Positions 1 to 36,414 of a stretch of DNA of 42,439 bases are shown here, in pieces. The stretch spans positions 1 through 42,439 of the IMG/VR virus record IMGVR_UViG_3300002092_000007. One strand, given 5' to 3'. This DNA is from a virus (lineage: Duplodnaviria; Caudoviricetes). A program made the position numbers and the translations under genes. The notes below the pieces were generated by a model that was given only the letters and a program-made list of their open reading frames with translations, made no database searches and was not told where the DNA came from. Position 1 is the first letter of the stretch; every line of letters starts with the position of its first letter.

Positions 1-101
1 CTATGTCTATGGCAATGCAACGATTGAGTCTATCTATGGCAATGCAACGATTGAGTCTATCTATGGCAATGCAACGATTGAGTCTATCTATGGCAATGCA
101 A
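1..101. repeat. Terminal direct overlap identical to 42339-42439 (circular assembly junction)
   Basis: Exact 101-nt match between the two window ends; the ORF starting at 42199 continues in frame into position 2. Confidence 0.95.
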
Positions 102-296
102 TGATTGAGTCTATCTATGGCAATGCAACGATTGAGTCTATCTATGGCAATGCAATGATTGAGTCTGTCTCTGGCAATGCAACGATTAAGTATGTCTATG
201 GCAATGCAACGATTAAGTATGTCTCTGGCAATGCAACGATTGAGTCTATCTATGGCAATGCAATGATTGAGTCTATCTATGGCAATGCAACGATTC
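2..296 (+). repeat. 27-bp tandem repeat (11 copies) encoding 9-aa units IESIYGNAT / IKYVSGNAT
   Basis: GGCAATGCAA core recurs at 11, 38, 65, 92, 119, 146, 173, 200, 227, 254, 281. Confidence 0.95.
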
Positions 297-820
297 TTCT
301 CCTTACAGGTCTTGCTTCAATAGTTTTATTATATTCAGCAAAAAAAATCGTAGCTAAAGGAATGAACTTAATAAGACAAATAGGAACAAAAAAAATAGAT
401 ATTGAAATGACAAAATCTGTAACTTTTGTTCAGATAAAAGAAACTTTTGAAACAAATCCTACTATTGAAATGTTCTCAAAGATGTATCCAGTAGAAAAAA
501 ATAAGAAAAAAGTAATTCTCTACAAAGCAGTACATAAAAAAGATGATTATTATTTCTCTGATTATAATAAAAACTTTACTTATAAAATTGGAGAAATTAA
601 AGAAGAAAAAAATGATGATTCAAAAAATTGTTCTTGTTCTTATGGTATTCATCTAGCACATAAGAATTGGGCATTACTATTTGGAAAAAGTTGGAGTGAT
701 ATGGCTATCATAGAATGCGAAACAGATATAAAAAATATTGTAGTTTCTACTGATTGTGACGGCAAACTTAGAACATCAAAAATAAAGGTCATTCGAGAAT
801 TACCAGAATCAGAATACTAA
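2..820 (+). CDS. C-terminal part of origin-spanning phage protein (starts 42199): beta-helix-like 9-aa repeats plus conserved phage C-terminal domain
   Basis: In-frame repeats followed by YKAV...FTYKIGE...CSYGIH...DGKLRTSKIKVIREL, a motif set typical of a common phage hypothetical family. Confidence 0.85.
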   Translation, partial: YVYGNATIESIYGNATIESIYGNATIESIYGNAMIESIYGNATIESIYGNAMIESVSGNATIKYVYGNATIKYVSGNATIESIYGNAMIESIYGNATILLLTGLASIVLLYSAKKIVAKGMNLIRQIGTKKIDIEMTKSVTFVQIKETFETNPTIEMFSKMYPVEKNKKKVILYKAVHKKDDYYFSDYNKNFTYKIGEIKEEKNDDSKNCSCSYGIHLAHKNWALLFGKSWSDMAIIECETDIKNIVVSTDCDGKLRTSKIKVIRELPESEY

Positions 821-2117: not shown

Positions 2118-2315
2118 ATGTTCAATATAATAAAAGGAATTACAAAAGTAGCCTTAAGCCCTTTAAATGGGGTAAAGGAAATCTATGATGATATTACAGG
2201 GGAAAATTCAGATGAAGCTCAAGGAATATCAATTTTAACTACTGGAATTTCCTCTATCGTAAAAGGAACTGCAAAAGGTATTAAAAGTGGAGTTGAAGAT
2301 ATATTTGAAGATTAA
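2118..2315 (+). CDS. Hypothetical small protein (amphipathic)
   Basis: Tightly packed in the plus-strand operon. Confidence 0.75.
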   Translation: MFNIIKGITKVALSPLNGVKEIYDDITGENSDEAQGISILTTGISSIVKGTAKGIKSGVEDIFED

Positions 2316-3146: not shown

Positions 3147-3362
3147 ATGCAACTATACGAAATACCAAAAGGTTCAAAGATACAAGTTACTATGACAAGT
3201 GGTAAAAAATGCTTTATTACATTTCATCATCTTGATGGTATGTATTCTTATTGCACACTTGAAGACGGTGACCCAGACAATGTAGTTCACTTAGCAGGAT
3301 TTACTGAACTTAAAAAAGTCGATAATTATTATGAGATAATTGAGGAAACAAATGACAAGTGA
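3147..3362 (+). CDS. Hypothetical phage protein
   Basis: FHHLDGMYSYC motif; ORF track. Confidence 0.75.
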   Translation: MQLYEIPKGSKIQVTMTSGKKCFITFHHLDGMYSYCTLEDGDPDNVVHLAGFTELKKVDNYYEIIEETNDK

Positions 3363-8237: not shown

Positions 8238-8612
8238 ATGAAAAACACACTAACAATAGCTCTAATCGGGCTATTTTTGGTCTCATATTGCTTTGCAGAT
8301 ACTACTATAGCACCTGTTAAAGTGATTCCACCACATGAACCAACTATTAAAGAATTAATTGCTATTTATGCAAATAAGTATGATGTATCAGAATCTATGA
8401 TGCACAAAGTGATTAAATGCGAATCAGAATATAAACCTAAAGCATTAGGAGATAACGGACACGCAAGAGGATTAGTTCAGATAAATGATATTTGGCATCC
8501 AGAGGTATCTAAGTCAGATGCTTATAACCCAGAGTTTGCAATAGAGTTCTTAGCTAAAGGATTGGCAAATGGAAATGGACATGAATGGTCTTGTTATAGA
8601 AAACTTACTTGA
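8238..8612 (+). CDS. Secreted lytic transglycosylase (SLT-like)
   Basis: N-terminal signal peptide; CES, GLVQIN, NPEFAIEF, EWSCY. Confidence 0.85.
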   Translation: MKNTLTIALIGLFLVSYCFADTTIAPVKVIPPHEPTIKELIAIYANKYDVSESMMHKVIKCESEYKPKALGDNGHARGLVQINDIWHPEVSKSDAYNPEFAIEFLAKGLANGNGHEWSCYRKLT

Positions 8613-8637
8613 CAAGAAGATTAGGATATGATATAAT
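8609..8637 (+). promoter_or_regulatory. Consensus sigma70 promoter
   Basis: TTGACA-17 nt-TATAAT with TG extended -10. Confidence 0.85.
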
Positions 8638-8643
8638 ATTATC

Positions 8644-8722
8644 AAGCCAGAAAGTCCTGGAGAATAGACTTAGAAAGATGATTTCACTTAGCCCTAGCAT
8701 TAATTTGTTAGGGTTGAGTTTT
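8644..8722 (+). ncRNA. Candidate ~80-nt small RNA
   Basis: No ORF between the consensus promoter and a 14-bp terminator stem. Confidence 0.45.
8686..8722 (+). terminator. Intrinsic terminator
   Basis: ACTTAGCCCTAGCA/TGTTAGGGTTGAGT stem with three G-U pairs on the plus strand, followed by Ts. Confidence 0.7.
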
Positions 8723-9122
8723 ATATAATACCTCTAAATTTTTCAATAATTGTTTTTTCTCTATGACAATTCGGGCATAAAACTTGCATGTTTTCAATAT
8801 CTTTCTCTTTTATATATGTAGAATGAGGTAGTTTATTAGTATTTCTTCTTAAAGGTATTATATGGTCAATATCAAAGAAAGAGTACTCTCCTGGCCTATT
8901 TAAACCACATTTTGTACAGGTAAAATTTGATTTATCAATAACTTTTTTTCTCGTGGATTTTCCATGTAGTAAATCCAATTTTACTTTATCGCACTCACGA
9001 CAAGAACTAGTTAAACCACCAGACTGTGTTTTAGAAGTTCTAAAATTTTCTATGTTTAAGTCAAATATATTTTTACAAATATAACATTTTCTTTTTCCAA
9101 TTTTTATTAAATGTTTACCCAT
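8721..9122 (-). CDS. HNH endonuclease with N-terminal zinc finger
   Basis: CYIC/CREC, CTKC, DIDHIIP, NMQVLCPNCHREKT; ATG start MGKH at 9122. Confidence 0.9.
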   Translation of the reverse strand: MGKHLIKIGKRKCYICKNIFDLNIENFRTSKTQSGGLTSSCRECDKVKLDLLHGKSTRKKVIDKSNFTCTKCGLNRPGEYSFFDIDHIIPLRRNTNKLPHSTYIKEKDIENMQVLCPNCHREKTIIEKFRGII

Positions 9123-9132
9123 TATATGTACC

Positions 9133-9222
9133 AAAAAAGGCCACACGCTTAGCAGGATGTGGCCATCTTTGGTGCTAAGCTATTAATACAACTATTATAA
9201 CATATTTATAACTAAAAATCAA
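9133..9222 (-). promoter_or_regulatory. Promoter plus pseudoknotted terminator/attenuator leader of the HNH gene
   Basis: TTGATT-17-TATAAT (9222-9194); stem GGCCACA/TGTGGCC plus U6; loop 9147-9154 complementary to 9173-9180. Confidence 0.7.
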
Positions 9223-9335
9223 TACAACAAATCCCCTATCAACCAAGGGGATTTTATCGTTTAATCTTAGGAAAGAGTTTCAGTCTTGAACCCCGATTAA
9301 GTATCTATTATATCAGAATGAGTTAAAAAAGTAAA
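9222..9335 (-). ncRNA. Promoter plus candidate ~75-nt small RNA ending in a hairpin
   Basis: TTTACT-17-TATAAT (9335-9307); TTAATC/GATTAA stem; AAATCCCCT/AGGGGATTT hairpin at 9229-9254. Confidence 0.45.
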
Positions 9336-9551
9336 TCATTCTCACACCGACTCTCCGCAATTGAAGAATGGTCTGACGACTCATTGGATTGTCCATTGAA
9401 GGACTGAATCGGTGTGGCAGAGTTCCGTTTACGGGCTATTTCAATATAAACATTATCTGCATAGGTCTATATCTAGTCTCCTTGAGCTTCAATTCAGGAG
9501 ACTTGTATTAAAAATCTACTTAAATTATACTATACTTTAAAAAAAATGCAA
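9325..9551 (-). ncRNA. Promoter plus candidate ~190-nt structured RNA
   Basis: TTGCAT-16-TATAAT (9551-9524); hairpin 9475-9503; 11-bp closing stem 9343-9353/9406-9416 enclosing further stems; no convincing ORF. Confidence 0.55.
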
Positions 9552-9571
9552 GTCCATATTATGTAACTTGC
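9539..9571 (-). terminator. Intrinsic terminator after the two SD-led genes
   Basis: GCAAGT...ACTTGC stem followed by a U8 tract. Confidence 0.7.
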
Positions 9572-9757
9572 TCATTTATGTCCGAAGTTAGGTTGCCCTA
9601 AATTAGGATGTTGTTTCTTGTCTCGTATGAGAGCTTCTGCAAAGATGTTAGCAGTAGCGATAAACCCTCCTTCGAGAGCTTCCTCTACTATCATTCTATC
9701 TTCGGAAGAAAAATCCCAAGCAAGCATTAGAAACCGAAGTTGATTTTTCGTCATCAT
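9572..9757 (-). CDS. Small hypothetical protein with strong SD
   Basis: GGAAAGGAGA 7 nt upstream of ATG; ATGA overlap with the upstream ORF. Confidence 0.75.
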   Translation of the reverse strand: MMTKNQLRFLMLAWDFSSEDRMIVEEALEGGFIATANIFAEALIRDKKQHPNLGQPNFGHK

Positions 9758-9978
9758 TTGCAAATCTCCTTTCCAGTTACTCTGTTTGAAAGTACATCCA
9801 AACAGAAATCTTCCACTATTTGTGGAACAATATCAGTGAGATACCAGTGTTTAAATTGGTTCACAATGAATTGTCTTGACTTAGGCGTTTCTGCATATTC
9901 ATAAGATAATCCGAAAATTCTCTCTGAACACACGCCAAGTTTTACAGCAGCAAACATTACAATGTCTACATCTTTCAT
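9754..9978 (-). CDS. Small hypothetical protein with strong SD
   Basis: GAAAGGAGA-AAT-ATG; MKDVDIVMFAAVKLGV start. Confidence 0.75.
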   Translation of the reverse strand: MKDVDIVMFAAVKLGVCSERIFGLSYEYAETPKSRQFIVNQFKHWYLTDIVPQIVEDFCLDVLSNRVTGKEICK

Positions 9979-10000
9979 ATTTCTCCTTTCAAAGAACATT

Positions 10001-10196
10001 AGGGGATTGACTACTCACTGATAATCATTAATCCCCATTAGATGCTGGAACATTCGCTTATTCAGCTCTGCCTACAGGCGACCAGATTCATCTAAATTGC
10101 GAACAATTTGCTAGGGAGGTCTTTAGACTTTATCATTGAGATTTTCTAAGCAGTCCCCAGCAAGTTGCTAACAATGTTAGCTAACTTTCTATTATA
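10001..10196 (-). promoter_or_regulatory. -10 element and ~190-nt multi-hairpin 5' leader
   Basis: TATAAT at 10196-10191; consecutive stems GCTAAC/GTTAGC, TTGCTGGGGA/TCCCTAGCAA, ATTG-TTCG-CAAT, TTAGATG/CATCTAA, GGGGATT/AATCCCC. Confidence 0.6.
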
Positions 10197-10205
10197 ATTA
10201 TACTC

Positions 10206-11012
10206 TTATTTTTTCAATAATGCAAGTGTTGATAACTTTTGTTTCAATAGAACTATAAGTTGTTTCATTAAATCTATAAGAGAGTTTTGTAATTTAGTTA
10301 CATCTGTAGTTCCAATAAAATACATCGCACCTGTGTTTCTATGAGTTAAGAAATCTTCTGTGATAAATCTTACTCCGTCTGGTGAACTCCACTGTCCACT
10401 TGAATCTTCGCAAACTAAAGTCTTTACCCCATTTCGTAAAGTGAAGTCTACTGCACAAATAGCGTGTCCCCATTCTATTGGTTGACCATTATAAACTGGA
10501 GTTTGATTTGGTTGATTATATTCTTGTGAGTTTGATTCAACCGTAATGACACATTGTCCGTATGCTTGAATAGCTTGTGCGATTTCTTCGATGTTTTTAG
10601 GAGTGCAGAACTTATAACCTAAAGCCGCAACTGTAGTATTTAAAGGTCTTATCTTGTTCATTGTGGTTTCACTTTGAAATTGTGAGGGTTCGTCTTTCTC
10701 TAAAGCACAATGTTTGTTTTTAAATATGTCTCCTGCGTTTTGAATCCAAGCACCTTGCTCTGGGTAATTGTTTCTCCAAAAATACTCTGATGCAGAAATT
10801 TGCACACCTTCTAAAATCTCAATAGCTTTGGCACAACTCTGAAAGACACAACTTGAACTTCCGTTTTGATTACGTTGTAGGTATCTTTTGTATGTAGGTT
10901 TTTCTATCCAAGTTACTGGAAGTCCTGCATAATAAAAATTATGTTGATGGTCTTTTGCTTTTTCTTCTTCGCTACGAGTGTCTTTTGCTACTCCATTTTT
11001 AATTTCTTCCAT
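10206..11012 (-). CDS. Papain-like (C1/C39-type) cysteine peptidase, putative endolysin
   Basis: QNGSSSCV catalytic Cys, WGHAICAV catalytic His, EDSSG; follows a holin-like gene at the end of the late operon. Confidence 0.8.
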   Translation of the reverse strand: MEEIKNGVAKDTRSEEEKAKDHQHNFYYAGLPVTWIEKPTYKRYLQRNQNGSSSCVFQSCAKAIEILEGVQISASEYFWRNNYPEQGAWIQNAGDIFKNKHCALEKDEPSQFQSETTMNKIRPLNTTVAALGYKFCTPKNIEEIAQAIQAYGQCVITVESNSQEYNQPNQTPVYNGQPIEWGHAICAVDFTLRNGVKTLVCEDSSGQWSSPDGVRFITEDFLTHRNTGAMYFIGTTDVTKLQNSLIDLMKQLIVLLKQKLSTLALLKK

Positions 11013-28778: not shown

Positions 28779-28802
28779 TTTAATTTTAATTAATTTGCTA
28801 AT

Positions 28803-28865
28803 ACCTGTCTCGGTTGGGATAGAGTAACCTGGTCGATGAGATTACCCTGTCACAACCGAGAAGGT
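28803..28865 (-). other. Long imperfect RNA hairpin downstream of the major capsid gene
   Basis: About 27-bp stem ACCTTCTCGGTTGTGACAGGGTAATCT / AGGTTACTCTATCCCAACCGAGACAGGT. Confidence 0.7.
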
Positions 28866-28915
28866 TGCGATAATCCTTTGAATAGGGATTAAGAACTATT
28901 GACAATAAGCTAAAT

Positions 28916-29842
28916 CTATGTTGTAGAATTTGCTCCGATTGCCCACTGAAAACTCTGGAATCCAGGTCTAAACATTGTTGAACCTGTGTATACCTTTGTT
29001 CCATTATTGATAACTTTATCGTCATCAAACTTTGGTCTCCATCCCCAGACAACTTTAGTCATCATAGCTGCTCTTTCAAGGTCTATAACGAACCAATATT
29101 TGCTGTATGTTGTTGGAATCCAGTTAGCTACTACGAGGTCGATAGAACCAGCAGCATTGTTGAACACATTGTTCACTCTGTTTGCTGAATCTGGGTTACC
29201 GATTGAACGTAGAACTTCCTCTGCTTTCTCCTTGTTCTCTCTTGCGACAATAAGTCTAAGTTTTGTACAAGGTAGAAGTTGAATACCCTTATCATCATAC
29301 ATTCTATCAAGATTCTGCACAGCAGTCTTGACGTTATCGTATGTAAGAGGGATTGCTCCTAGTGTGTTTGACTGTGTTGAACCATCTCCCATAGGGTGAG
29401 ATGCACTGAACAAAGCTACTCCATCTCCTCCTGTGAAGAAGGTTGTACCGAATCCTAAGTAGAAAATCTTAGCAACATCAGTGTTAATTCTTGCGTTAAG
29501 TGCGTTTGCAACACCACTAACCAAGTTGTTAATCTTAGGCCATAGGTTGAATCTCAACATTTCTTCTGTGATTTCAATTGCCTTTGTGAATTTAACTGGT
29601 GTGATTGTTACGTTGTAACCAGCTGCAAGGTCCTCACGGTTGTAAGGTTCCTTTTCGCCAGTTGCTTGAGCCATTCCCAAGCCAGTGAAGTTCTCGAACT
29701 GTGAGTTCAAGATTTCAGCTGTGTGGTCTGCCATTCCGAATAGTTGGTATTCTAAACGAGTTGAAAGCTGTGTTTGCTTTTCGTCCCAAATACCTCGGAT
29801 TCGAGGGTCAGCCAAATCAAATAATCTTTGTAGGTCTGCCAA
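28916..29842 (-). CDS. Major capsid protein (HK97 fold, Mu gpT-like), TTG start
   Basis: 308 aa; ITEEM, GGDGVALFSASHP, YWFVID motifs; follows scaffold and cement genes. Confidence 0.85.
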   Translation of the reverse strand: MADLQRLFDLADPRIRGIWDEKQTQLSTRLEYQLFGMADHTAEILNSQFENFTGLGMAQATGEKEPYNREDLAAGYNVTITPVKFTKAIEITEEMLRFNLWPKINNLVSGVANALNARINTDVAKIFYLGFGTTFFTGGDGVALFSASHPMGDGSTQSNTLGAIPLTYDNVKTAVQNLDRMYDDKGIQLLPCTKLRLIVARENKEKAEEVLRSIGNPDSANRVNNVFNNAAGSIDLVVANWIPTTYSKYWFVIDLERAAMMTKVVWGWRPKFDDDKVINNGTKVYTGSTMFRPGFQSFQWAIGANSTT

Positions 29843-30430: not shown

Positions 30431-31156
30431 TTATTTTTTCTTGTCTGTTTCTTGCTTTAGTTTTACCCAAGCATCTGGAGACATACCCCATTTAGCCAAT
30501 ATAGCCGCATCGTCACCTGTAAGGTGTGGAGCTTTCTCTCTCTCAGTTGGGATTGAAGTTGACCCTCTTGAGACAGCGATGTCGGAGAATATAGCATCTC
30601 CTCGTGCTTCGTCTAGTCTGTTGTTTCGTACACCTTCTAGAATTTCATCCGCAAATTCTGCTGCATAGGCTTTTTTAAGGTCTGTGAGCACTCCTTCTTG
30701 GGTTCGTTCTGAAGCTGTTTTAATCTTGTTGTAAAGTCCGATAACTCGTTTAAGTCCTTCTGAATCTTTAGCAAGATTTGGTTTGTCAGCTAAGAAAGTC
30801 TTAAGAGCATAAGTTCTAACTTCTTCTTTTTCCTTTTCTAATTCTGCTTGTAGTGGATTAACAGTATCTTTGATATGTTTATCCCAAGCCTTAGAACCTG
30901 AATCATTAAAGTCAATCTTAGGCAACTCTTCTTCTGCTTCTATTCCAGATTTCTCTTTCTTAGTTGCAGTTCGAATTGTTTTTAGTTCTGCATTTGCTTC
31001 AGCGATTGCCTTGCGAATGTTTGCTAACCTTTCCTCTTCCTTCAGTGCTAACTCTGCTTTGTCTTCCTCTGGGGATTTAGTCTTAGACTTATCCTCTAAC
31101 GCTTGAGCTGAAGTTTTGTCTTCATCAGCGAGTAACTTTTCGAGTTCTGTTGTCAT
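30431..31156 (-). CDS. Capsid scaffolding protein
   Basis: Charged coiled coil, C-terminal AKWGMSPDAW; upstream of the capsid genes. Confidence 0.75.
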   Translation of the reverse strand: MTTELEKLLADEDKTSAQALEDKSKTKSPEEDKAELALKEEERLANIRKAIAEANAELKTIRTATKKEKSGIEAEEELPKIDFNDSGSKAWDKHIKDTVNPLQAELEKEKEEVRTYALKTFLADKPNLAKDSEGLKRVIGLYNKIKTASERTQEGVLTDLKKAYAAEFADEILEGVRNNRLDEARGDAIFSDIAVSRGSTSIPTEREKAPHLTGDDAAILAKWGMSPDAWVKLKQETDKKK

Positions 31157-31204
31157 AGTTTTTAACGAACACTAACGTGGTCCGACACGATACTTATGAT
31201 TAAA

Positions 31205-31320
31205 CTTGAAAAATATCTTGAATGTATATTTCAAGACTTTTTGAAACCTTTATGTTGTGTCCACGACTACACCCCATAAAGGCTTATTAAAACCTTGAAT
31301 ATACTTTGTCGTGGTCGTGG
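31205..31320 (-). promoter_or_regulatory. Structured pseudoknot-like leader of the scaffold/capsid operon
   Basis: Long stem 31224-31260/31269-31304; loop 31261-31267 complementary to 31308-31320. Confidence 0.6.
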
Positions 31321-31338
31321 TTGAATTGTAAAAGTGCT

Positions 31339-31542
31339 TTACTTAATTCCGAAAACCTTGTTCTTTACCTTTGTGTAAGCTGCTGCGTTAAATTTCTTGG
31401 CAGGTTTAGCTTTACTCTTTGGGGTCTTTGTTGGTGTAGCTTTTGGTGCTACTTTCTTTGGAACTTTATTGTAGACAGGTGCATCCATTCCTGGAGCCTT
31501 CTTATCAATCTTTGGTGTTCCGTACTGATTCTTTGTTGCCAT
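31339..31542 (-). CDS. Small K/A/P-rich basic protein
   Basis: KKVAPKATPTKTPKSKAKPAKK. Confidence 0.75.
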   Translation of the reverse strand: MATKNQYGTPKIDKKAPGMDAPVYNKVPKKVAPKATPTKTPKSKAKPAKKFNAAAYTKVKNKVFGIK

Positions 31543-35570: not shown

Positions 35571-35976
35571 GTGAAACATTATAACATAATTATTAACAAA
35601 AGTAAACTCCTTATATAATAAAAAAAATAAAATTCAGTATTTCAAAATCAAATTCTCTAATAGGCTATTGACATCAATGATTCAATGTGTTCCAATTTGC
35701 TTTAGTTGATGAAAAAAATAAAATGAATACAAATGATTATAATGATAGTCAAGGGATAGCTATGGTGATACTACGGATAAACTATTATTGTCTACCAGAT
35801 AACCAACTTGAAAAGCGTGTTTTCTAACATATATATTATAGTTTGTCAATAGACATATATATTTATTAGTGTCAATATATTTGGTCATCAATTTGACCCC
35901 TGTATATTTCTATGTCTTTAACACGATTATATCAATGTGTCAAGTAATTATTAGTGTATCAAATTACACCATTGAA

Positions 35977-36414
35977 TTAACTATTTGTCAAGTCTTTATT
36001 CTTCTTCATCTGTAATGCTAAGAAATCATCACTACCATATATAACTACATTTGTCAAATGACTATGATTGTCCGTTGATTTACCATTTAATAGTTGCAAA
36101 TCATGGTTAAGATTTTTTAATAAGTTGTTTAAATCAAATAGTTTTTCATTGTCTAAGTCCTTTGATTGTAATGCGTTAATAGTTTTATCTCTTAAGGCAA
36201 TCATTTTGTTAATTGCAGGGTTAAGAGTATCAATATAACTTCTAGCTTTTGTAGCTTTCATAGCCTTAGCACTAGAAAGAGAATATCCATTTTTAATCTG
36301 TATCTCTCTAAGGTTTACAGGCTTACCTTGACTTACCTTTTTAATTACATCTAATGCAACTGATTTAGCTTGAAAACTATTGACTTTATGGGGTTTATGT
36401 TGTTTCGTAGTCAT
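35977..36414 (-). CDS. Terminase small subunit-like protein
   Basis: GYSLSSA helix-turn-helix-like motif, QLLNGKSTDN; upstream of terL. Confidence 0.6.
   Translation of the reverse strand: MTTKQHKPHKVNSFQAKSVALDVIKKVSQGKPVNLREIQIKNGYSLSSAKAMKATKARSYIDTLNPAINKMIALRDKTINALQSKDLDNEKLFDLNNLLKNLNHDLQLLNGKSTDNHSHLTNVVIYGSDDFLALQMKKNKDLTNS

What the first reader, a model, noticed from the sequence alone, without database searches (positions are those of the whole stretch)
9572..10196. Two small genes with strong Shine-Dalgarno motifs behind a five-hairpin leader in an otherwise SD-less genome
Seen: GAAAGGAGA precedes both ORFs (9978 and 9757). Almost every other gene I inspected, including capsid and terminase, is preceded only by A/T-rich sequence, a TAATG overlap or a leaderless start. 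The pair has its own -10 box, a ~190-nt run of five consecutive stems and its own terminator. Inference: a self-contained mRNA cassette built for a different translation regime. It is either a recent import from an SD-using organism or, speculatively, a stabilised mRNA meant for the larger bacterium on which a CPR episymbiont lives.
Basis: partly seen in the sequence, partly recalled or inferred. Interest (0 to 1): 0.7.

Follow-up and report, generated by a model that had tools for sequence, protein, structure and literature searches.

The report
Conserved boxA/Shine-Dalgarno phage accessory operon
In a phage whose other genes almost never have a ribosome-binding (Shine-Dalgarno) site, two small orphan genes form a unit with such sites and a likely rRNA-type 'boxA' transcription signal; distant relatives, and ultra-small Patescibacteria whose own ribosomes lack the matching sequence, keep the same signals, so the unit is an old second gene class, likely regulated separately and possibly translated in another cell.

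Summary
Both ORFs carry GAAAGGAGA, while only 2 of 60 other curated phage genes have GGAG. The unit has a promoter, a structured leader (z -3.2) and a terminator. 'Recent import' is rejected. ORF1 relatives at 37-59% identity, with saturated silent sites (34/146), head similar operons in 14 other loci, and each cassette keeps at least one strong SD amid SD-less genes. The five-hairpin leader is not conserved. What is conserved is a boxA-like 11-mer just before the first gene (9/14 loci vs 0/98 controls), also seen in Paceibacteria 16S leaders (11/27 vs about 1 expected). One ORF1 copy lies in a Paceibacterota chromosome. A cargo family from sister cassettes occurs in 22/301 genomes of that class and keeps its SD in four genomes whose 16S lacks the anti-SD. 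SD-led genes are about 9% whether or not the anti-SD is present. Best reading: a moron-like operon of a Paceibacteria-wide SD-led gene class, likely gated by NusB at boxA (0.45). Rival: mRNA translated in the episymbiont's host cell (0.3). There are no expression data, the host is inferred and the protein functions are unknown.

The parts
10197..10225 (-). Predicted sigma-70 promoter (TTGCAT, 17 nt, TATAAT; second TATAAT 10196-10191), overlapping the end of the upstream 268-aa gene
   Evidence: sequence; consensus match only
9998..10190 (-). Structured 5' leader with three firm stems (10163-10108, 10095-10038, 10036-10002) and one weak one; not conserved as a whole in relatives
10038..10095 (-). 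Sub-domain with two short blocks shared with the cassette trailer of L007 (possible conserved junction, n=2)
9987..9997 (-). boxA-like 11-mer overlapping the SD and predicted to pair with it
9982..9990 (-). Shine-Dalgarno site of ORF1
9754..9978 (-). ORF1, 74 aa (P0001): conserved first gene of the operon; four-helix fold, weak HTH resemblance, no named family
9765..9773 (-). Shine-Dalgarno site of ORF2, inside the last codons of ORF1
9572..9757 (-). ORF2, 61 aa (P0002), overlapping the ORF1 stop (ATGA); 27-30% alike to the second genes of L003 and L007
9538..9571 (-). Predicted intrinsic terminator (hairpin plus T-run), overlapping the -35 of the next promoter

Best explanation
The unit is a lineage-conserved, moron-like two-gene operon with Shine-Dalgarno sites and a boxA-like element, in a phage that likely infects Paceibacteria (Patescibacteria); it is likely transcribed from its own promoter, and NusB-S10 binding at boxA is predicted to control access to the first Shine-Dalgarno site for host ribosomes that still carry an anti-SD. 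SHOWN: the anatomy; retention of SD and boxA across diverged relatives; variable downstream cargo; the same signature on about 9% of Paceibacteria chromosomal genes, mostly orphans; boxA in Paceibacteria 16S leaders; NusB found and Rho not found in that class. INFERRED: the host; transcription; NusB binding; opening of the boxA-SD hairpin; which ribosome reads the SD; an HTH-like regulatory role for ORF1 over variable small cargo (acr-aca-like layout, recalled analogy, weak).
For: ORF1 family: 29 hits at E<=0.001, one spurious; 14 loci besides this phage. Four-fold sites are identical at 34 of 146. ORF1 has an SD in 9 of 14 loci with upstream DNA. All 15 cassettes hold at least one SD-led gene (hand count 31 of 45 genes), against 2 of 52 genes of 100 aa or more in 11 of those loci, one of them a cassette gene. 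boxA with at most 1 mismatch: 9 of 14 vs 0 of 98. Independent tests: 8 of 67 SD-led vs 7 of 424 other chromosomal genes with non-coding upstream DNA, p=2e-4, and 11 of 27 16S leaders vs 0.98 expected. boxA pairs with the SD in 5 of the 9 SD-bearing ORF1 leaders. NusB in 99 of 101 genomes; anti-SD kept in 13 of 28 16S ends. Host link: ORF1 copy in a Paceibacterota MAG contig with chromosomal genes; cargo family D in 22 of 301 class genomes, vs 1 of 201 in the phylum of G002, that one being the same phage contig; an integrated prophage in G257 with the same boxA+GAAAGGAGA leader.
Against: SD-led genes are as frequent where the 16S lacks the anti-SD (59 of 620) as where it is kept (25 of 272), and all four family-D genes in anti-SD-less genomes keep a strong SD; own-ribosome reading cannot explain those. 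A SuhB-like gene was found in only 13 of 61 class genomes, while E. coli boxA repression needs the full Nus complex (PMC5725501, passages). Direct host evidence for this phage is weak: terminase matches in 4 of 401 genomes, best 33% identity, hardly above the best cultured phage. One cassette contig is binned in a Melioribacteraceae MAG. ORF1 lacks an SD in 5 of 14 loci. The HTH resemblance is Z 5.0, not significant. The boxA motif was first seen by eye in the ORF1 loci, so the 9/14 figure is post hoc.
Confidence: 0.45

Rival explanations
1. Cross-cell message: the transcript is made in the Paceibacteria cell, where boxA/NusB keeps it untranslated and folded like rRNA and no Rho cuts it short. 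It is then passed to the larger host cell, whose ribosomes read the SD, so the small proteins act as effectors made inside the host.
For: SD frequency does not depend on anti-SD status. SD is kept in four anti-SD-less genomes, two of them with GTG/TTG starts. SD-led genes are mostly orphans (NCBIfam hit 14 of 58 vs 36 of 59). No donor was found in INPHARED or PLSDB with the queries used. Cassette GC3 exceeds flank GC3 in 9 of 9 loci. An SD-led sigma-54 activator-like gene lies in G075, where rpoN was not found. Rho is 0 of 101 over cut-off.
Against: There is no RNA evidence of transfer and no known route (I recall no precedent between prokaryotes). The stabilising five-stem leader is not conserved, and several relatives have the start just after the promoter. 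Family D is HNH-like and may hop from anti-SD-positive lineages. MAG bins can be mixed; the 16S 3' end of G257 is on another contig than its 5' half. Some SD-led genes are housekeeping-type (serS, rsmH).
Confidence: 0.3
2. The purine-rich motif is read by something other than the 16S tail (an RNA-binding protein or another part of the reduced ribosome) and marks a separately regulated gene class in Paceibacteria.
For: It would explain equal frequency in both 16S types without RNA export. Helix h26 is conserved in Parcubacteria lacking the anti-SD, role unknown (PMC9297842, passages).
Against: The motifs follow the canonical anti-SD complement with long pairing (to -16 kcal/mol) and ordinary spacing. 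No candidate factor was identified.
Confidence: 0.15
3. Imported relic: a promoter-boxA-SD cassette taken from an ordinary SD-using phage and not yet decayed.
For: boxA followed by AAAGGAG is common in viral contigs (120 loci returned, about 430 estimated). ORF2 has the third-lowest codon fit of 62 genes.
Against: Silent sites are saturated yet SD and boxA persist. Different cargo families each carry an SD. No SD-using donor was found. ORF1 codon fit is unremarkable (rank 17 of 62).
Confidence: 0.1

Closest known systems
Phage morons (autonomous promoter-gene-terminator units; recalled)
   Same: Own promoter and terminator, small accessory genes, variable cargo, site next to lysis-type genes (follows the peptidase-like homologue in L003, L004, L007, L013).
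   Different: Uses a translation signal absent from the rest of the genome, carries boxA, and is old and conserved rather than a sporadic insert.
E. coli suhB boxA control (Baniulyte et al. 2017, PMC5725501; passages read)
   Same: boxA within a few bases of an SD in an mRNA leader; consensus GYTCTTTAANA, from which the window differs at one position (G for A at 8).
   Different: There it represses translation and triggers Rho and needs the full Nus complex. In the inferred host class Rho was not found, SuhB-like genes are in 13 of 61 genomes, and boxA itself can pair with the SD.
Flavobacterium rpsU: a lone SD-led gene in an SD-blind lineage (PMC7797042, PMC13000453; abstract starts only)
   Same: SD used on a chosen minority of genes in an SD-less genome.
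   Different: Bacteroidia keep the anti-SD; here the class persists where the anti-SD is lost, and the genes are orphans, not bS21.
acr-aca operons (recalled)
   Same: Strong small operon with one conserved small helical gene and variable small partners; Aca1 and Aca10 appear among weak fold matches (Z 3.9, 3.4).
   Different: No sequence or significant fold match; the conserved gene comes first; no anti-CRISPR link was tested.
Agrobacterium T-DNA genes (recalled; analogy for the cross-cell reading only)
   Same: Genes kept in one organism with expression signals suited to its host.
   Different: No borders or transfer system were seen, and transfer here is hypothetical.

Membership tests
Phage moron | Own promoter and terminator | tested here: met
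   Consensus-level only; not listed by the scan
Phage moron | Variable content between conserved neighbours in relatives | tested here: met
   Cargo differs among L003-L016
Phage moron | Expressed from the prophage, with a benefit to the lysogen | not testable with these tools
   No RNA run listed; lysogeny of this phage not examined
boxA / Nus target | Match to the boxA consensus | tested here: met
   One difference from GYTCTTTAANA; the same 11-mer lies in the 16S leader of L040
boxA / Nus target | Conserved position and enrichment over background | tested here: met
   9/14 vs 0/98 (post hoc); 8/67 vs 7/424; 11/27 vs 0.98
boxA / Nus target | NusB in the host | tested here: met
   99 of 101 genomes of the inferred host class
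boxA / Nus target | Full complex with SuhB, and Rho, as in E. coli suhB control | tested here: inconclusive
   SuhB-like 13 of 61; Rho 0 of 101 over cut-off; genomes incomplete
boxA / Nus target | NusB-S10 binds and changes expression | not testable with these tools
   Needs a binding or reporter assay
HTH (XRE/Aca-like) regulator | Significant profile or fold match | tested here: inconclusive
   No significant Pfam, PHROG or PDB hit; best VIA Z 5.0 to MqsA, no Foldseek E<=0.001; N-terminal HTH-like motif is recalled
Known Rfam leader, riboswitch or ribozyme | Match at gathering score | tested here: not met
   0 matches in the window; only sub-threshold matches in 8600-10300

The most novel reading that the evidence does not exclude
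Patescibacteria and their phages keep a second class of genes written for another cell's ribosome. boxA marks the transcript for rRNA-like, untranslated handling in the Rho-less episymbiont, and the SD lets the larger host translate it: effectors delivered as mRNA between prokaryotes. This cassette would be a phage-borne set aimed at its host's host.
Probability: 0.3. Interest if true: 0.93.

Novelty: new variant of a known kind. Interest (0 to 1): 0.7.

Why it matters
How Patescibacteria act on their hosts, and what their many orphan genes do, is an open question. An SD+boxA signature picks out about 9% of their genes from sequence alone, and its persistence where the ribosome has lost the anti-SD needs an explanation: a non-canonical reader or translation in another cell. 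Either is testable with dual Ribo-seq in a co-culture. It also gives NusB, kept in 99 of 101 genomes that lack a detectable Rho, a candidate set of mRNA targets.

Tried and rejected
Rfam and ARAGORN found nothing. ORF1 and ORF2 had no relatives in IMG/VR by pattern scan, nor had the upstream peptidase-like gene. INPHARED gave no useful DNA or ORF1 match. ESM Atlas gave no usable hit. P0019 (repeat protein) was dropped as spurious and P0011 ignored. ORF1 was found in 1 of 401 Paceibacteria-class genomes, the centre G001 itself, so it is mainly phage-borne. No RNA holder was listed; four DNA runs, possible sources of this contig, showed no variants. Leader conservation was rejected. The leader sub-motif scan gave one viral hit, L274, antisense inside a long gene of an SD-using phage, judged chance. 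The 43 weak Rho hits are far below cut-off and read by me as ATP synthase subunits (not checked). Fold searches gave no significant match. No complex prediction was sent. The anti-SD status of G001 is unknown (no 16S found) and is known for only 9 of the 22 family-D genomes. Ten literature searches listed no paper on an SD-led or boxA-led gene class in Patescibacteria or their phages; the library is partial and no supplements were read.

Full report
Setting. The window is a whole 42,439-base virus record with terminase, portal and capsid genes, held in freshwater DNA runs. The unit lies on the minus strand after a 268-aa gene without family hit, which I read as peptidase-like from its motifs, and before a run of small promoter/hairpin units and an HNH gene.

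Observation. Both ORFs have GAAAGGAGA 3 and 7 bases before the ATG. 0 of 39 genes of 100 aa or more have a strict SD, and 2 of 60 other hand-curated genes have GGAG. Promoter and terminator are present at consensus level but were not listed by the simple scan. The leader folds better than shuffles (z -3.19). Three stems are firm, the SD stem has probability 0.73 and the first stem 0.33. Rfam and ARAGORN found nothing.

Relatives. ORF1 has 29 hits among the 50%-identity representatives, one of them spurious. A 10-sequence alignment found 16 loci in metagenome contigs: two are this phage, 14 are others; some of the 14 are clearly related to each other. Protein identity to the window is 37-59% and four-fold sites match at 34 of 146 (13 loci, L014 left out as truncated). 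ORF1 heads a short operon: ORF1, then an ORF2-like gene (L003, L007) or a second small family, often an aromatic-rich small gene, then often an HNH-like family D. ORF1 has an SD in 9 of 14 loci. All 15 cassettes hold at least one SD-led gene. By hand count 31 of 45 cassette genes do, and most of the rest abut or overlap the previous stop. Among genes of 100 aa or more in 11 of these loci, 2 of 52 have an SD. Cassette GC3 is above flank GC3 in 9 of 9 loci compared. An unused signal would not survive this divergence, so recent import is rejected.

The conserved leader element. The leaders do not align. What recurs is a boxA-like 11-mer within 70 nt of the start: at most 1 mismatch to GYTCTTTRAMA in 9 of 14 loci (8 of 13 without the window) vs 0 of 98 other ORFs. 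It is also present in four loci where ORF1 has no SD. I saw the motif by eye, named it from memory and widened the published consensus GYTCTTTAANA (PMC5725501, passages) at position 8 while narrowing its N to A/C, so this count is post hoc. On its own, the window holds 2 exact matches vs 0.62 expected, which is not significant. Independent checks: 11 of 27 Paceibacteria 16S leaders carry it vs 0.98 expected, and among chromosomal genes with non-coding upstream DNA 8 of 67 SD-led vs 7 of 424 others do. In 5 of 9 SD-bearing ORF1 leaders, boxA pairs with the SD in the local fold. boxA+SD is not peculiar to this lineage; it is common in viral contigs.

Host. One ORF1 copy lies among chromosomal genes of a Candidatus Paceibacterota MAG; another cassette contig is binned in a Melioribacteraceae MAG, probably a stray phage contig. 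Family D was found in 22 of 301 genomes of the Paceibacterota genome's class (some hits weak), in 1 of 201 of the other phylum (the same contig), and not in INPHARED or PLSDB with one query. G257 holds an integrated prophage between genes I read as chromosomal (dnaK, gatB, transketolase; not scanned), with a boxA+GAAAGGAGA leader before a D gene. The window's terminase matches only 4 of 401 class genomes, at 33% at best. A Paceibacteria host is therefore inferred, not shown.

Who reads the SD. In that class 13 of 28 16S ends keep CCTCC, in line with 48% for Parcubacteria in PMC9297842 (passages). In sampled genome stretches, with a crude ORF caller that tests up to two starts, 59 of 620 ORFs are SD-led in anti-SD-less genomes (68 of 2798 at internal ATGs) and 25 of 272 in anti-SD-bearing ones. 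SD-led genes are mostly orphans: 14 of 58 have an NCBIfam hit vs 36 of 59 random others (one SD-led protein over 700 aa left out). Of 22 family-D loci, 2 had no start. 16 of the other 20 have a strict SD (start chosen by best pairing; 8 of 9 where only one start existed) and 7 of 20 a boxA with at most 1 mismatch. Four of these genomes lack the anti-SD and all four keep the SD; five keep the anti-SD; 13 are unknown. NusB was found in 99 of 101 genomes, Rho over cut-off in 0 of 101, SuhB-like genes in 13 of 61.

Proteins. ORF1 folds confidently (pLDDT 90.7, four helices). Its best fold match is Z 5.0 to the MqsA DNA-binding domain, with other HTH proteins below, under the tool's bar; Foldseek and profile searches gave nothing significant. 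ORF2 has no family. An HTH-like regulator heading variable cargo is a weak lead.

Mechanism. Most likely (0.45): a moron-like operon of a Paceibacteria-wide SD-led gene class, transcribed from its own promoter, with NusB-S10 at boxA gating the first SD for anti-SD-bearing ribosomes. This does not explain the anti-SD-less genomes. Those are explained by translation in the larger host cell (0.3), by a non-canonical reader (0.15) or by relic import (0.1). No step of expression was observed.

Prior record. Earlier AI notes of this scan describe SD-led accessory cassettes in several Patescibacteria chromosomes. They agree but are not independent evidence; the lines shown do not mention boxA or anti-SD loss. 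Ten paper searches listed no description of this class. I read passages of PMC9297842 and PMC5725501 and only abstract starts of PMC7797042 and PMC13000453. Supplements were not read; the boxA gene list of PMC5725501 covers gamma-proteobacteria. Morons, acr-aca and T-DNA are recalled.

Verdict. The feature is real and old. The new points are the phage-borne form, the boxA element and SD retention without an anti-SD. New variant of a known kind; interest 0.7.

Noticed in passing
window 9310-9529 (-): A second promoter (TTGCAT 9551, TATAAT 9529) precedes an ORF-poor ~200-nt RNA that folds at z -4.6, with no Rfam match; candidate phage ncRNA. Two more promoter/hairpin units follow at 9335-9229 and 9222-9130.
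   Followed up: partly
window 9150-9205 (-) and L011:1088-1143: The promoter plus hairpin upstream of the HNH gene is 79% alike over 56 nt to a stretch on the opposite strand just upstream of the L011 cassette.
   Followed up: no
window 10038-10095 (-) and L007:2170-2240: Two shared blocks inside a stem with one apparent compensatory change seen by eye; RNAalifold did not recover it. Possible small conserved RNA domain, only two copies.
   Followed up: partly
L056, L092, L096, L101, L105, L113, L114, L129, L131, L148, L150, L157, L173: An unrelated small membrane-protein family preceded by boxA+AAAGGAG in viral contigs whose neighbours are mostly SD-poor where there was flank to count; the same architecture in another phage group.
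   Followed up: no
L195, L223, L224, L233, L197, L225: In anti-SD-less Paceibacteria genomes the few named SD-led genes include thyA, a thyX-like gene, tmk, purH, guaB, fabH and a sigma-54 activator-like gene; rpoN was not found in that genome.
   Followed up: partly
window 2118-2315 (+), 3147-3362 (+): Two other small early-region genes with SD-like sites, without a boxA match close to the start.
   Followed up: no
window 31160-31170 (-): A boxA-like 11-mer (1 mismatch) directly before the 241-aa gene at 31156, upstream of the capsid genes, without an SD.
   Followed up: no
window 28801-28950, 31201-31350, 35851-36000: The three strongest folding z-scores of the genome (-7.3, -6.2, -5.4 with 12 shuffles) lie outside the cassette.
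   Followed up: no
G257:C11 about 40000-68000 (L266-L268): Apparently complete integrated prophage in a Paceibacteria chromosome, with a tRNA-like stretch and a boxA+SD family-D gene near its end.
   Followed up: partly
window 101-820 (+): Protein with an N-terminal run of short tandem repeats and a C-terminal RIIB-like match.
   Followed up: no
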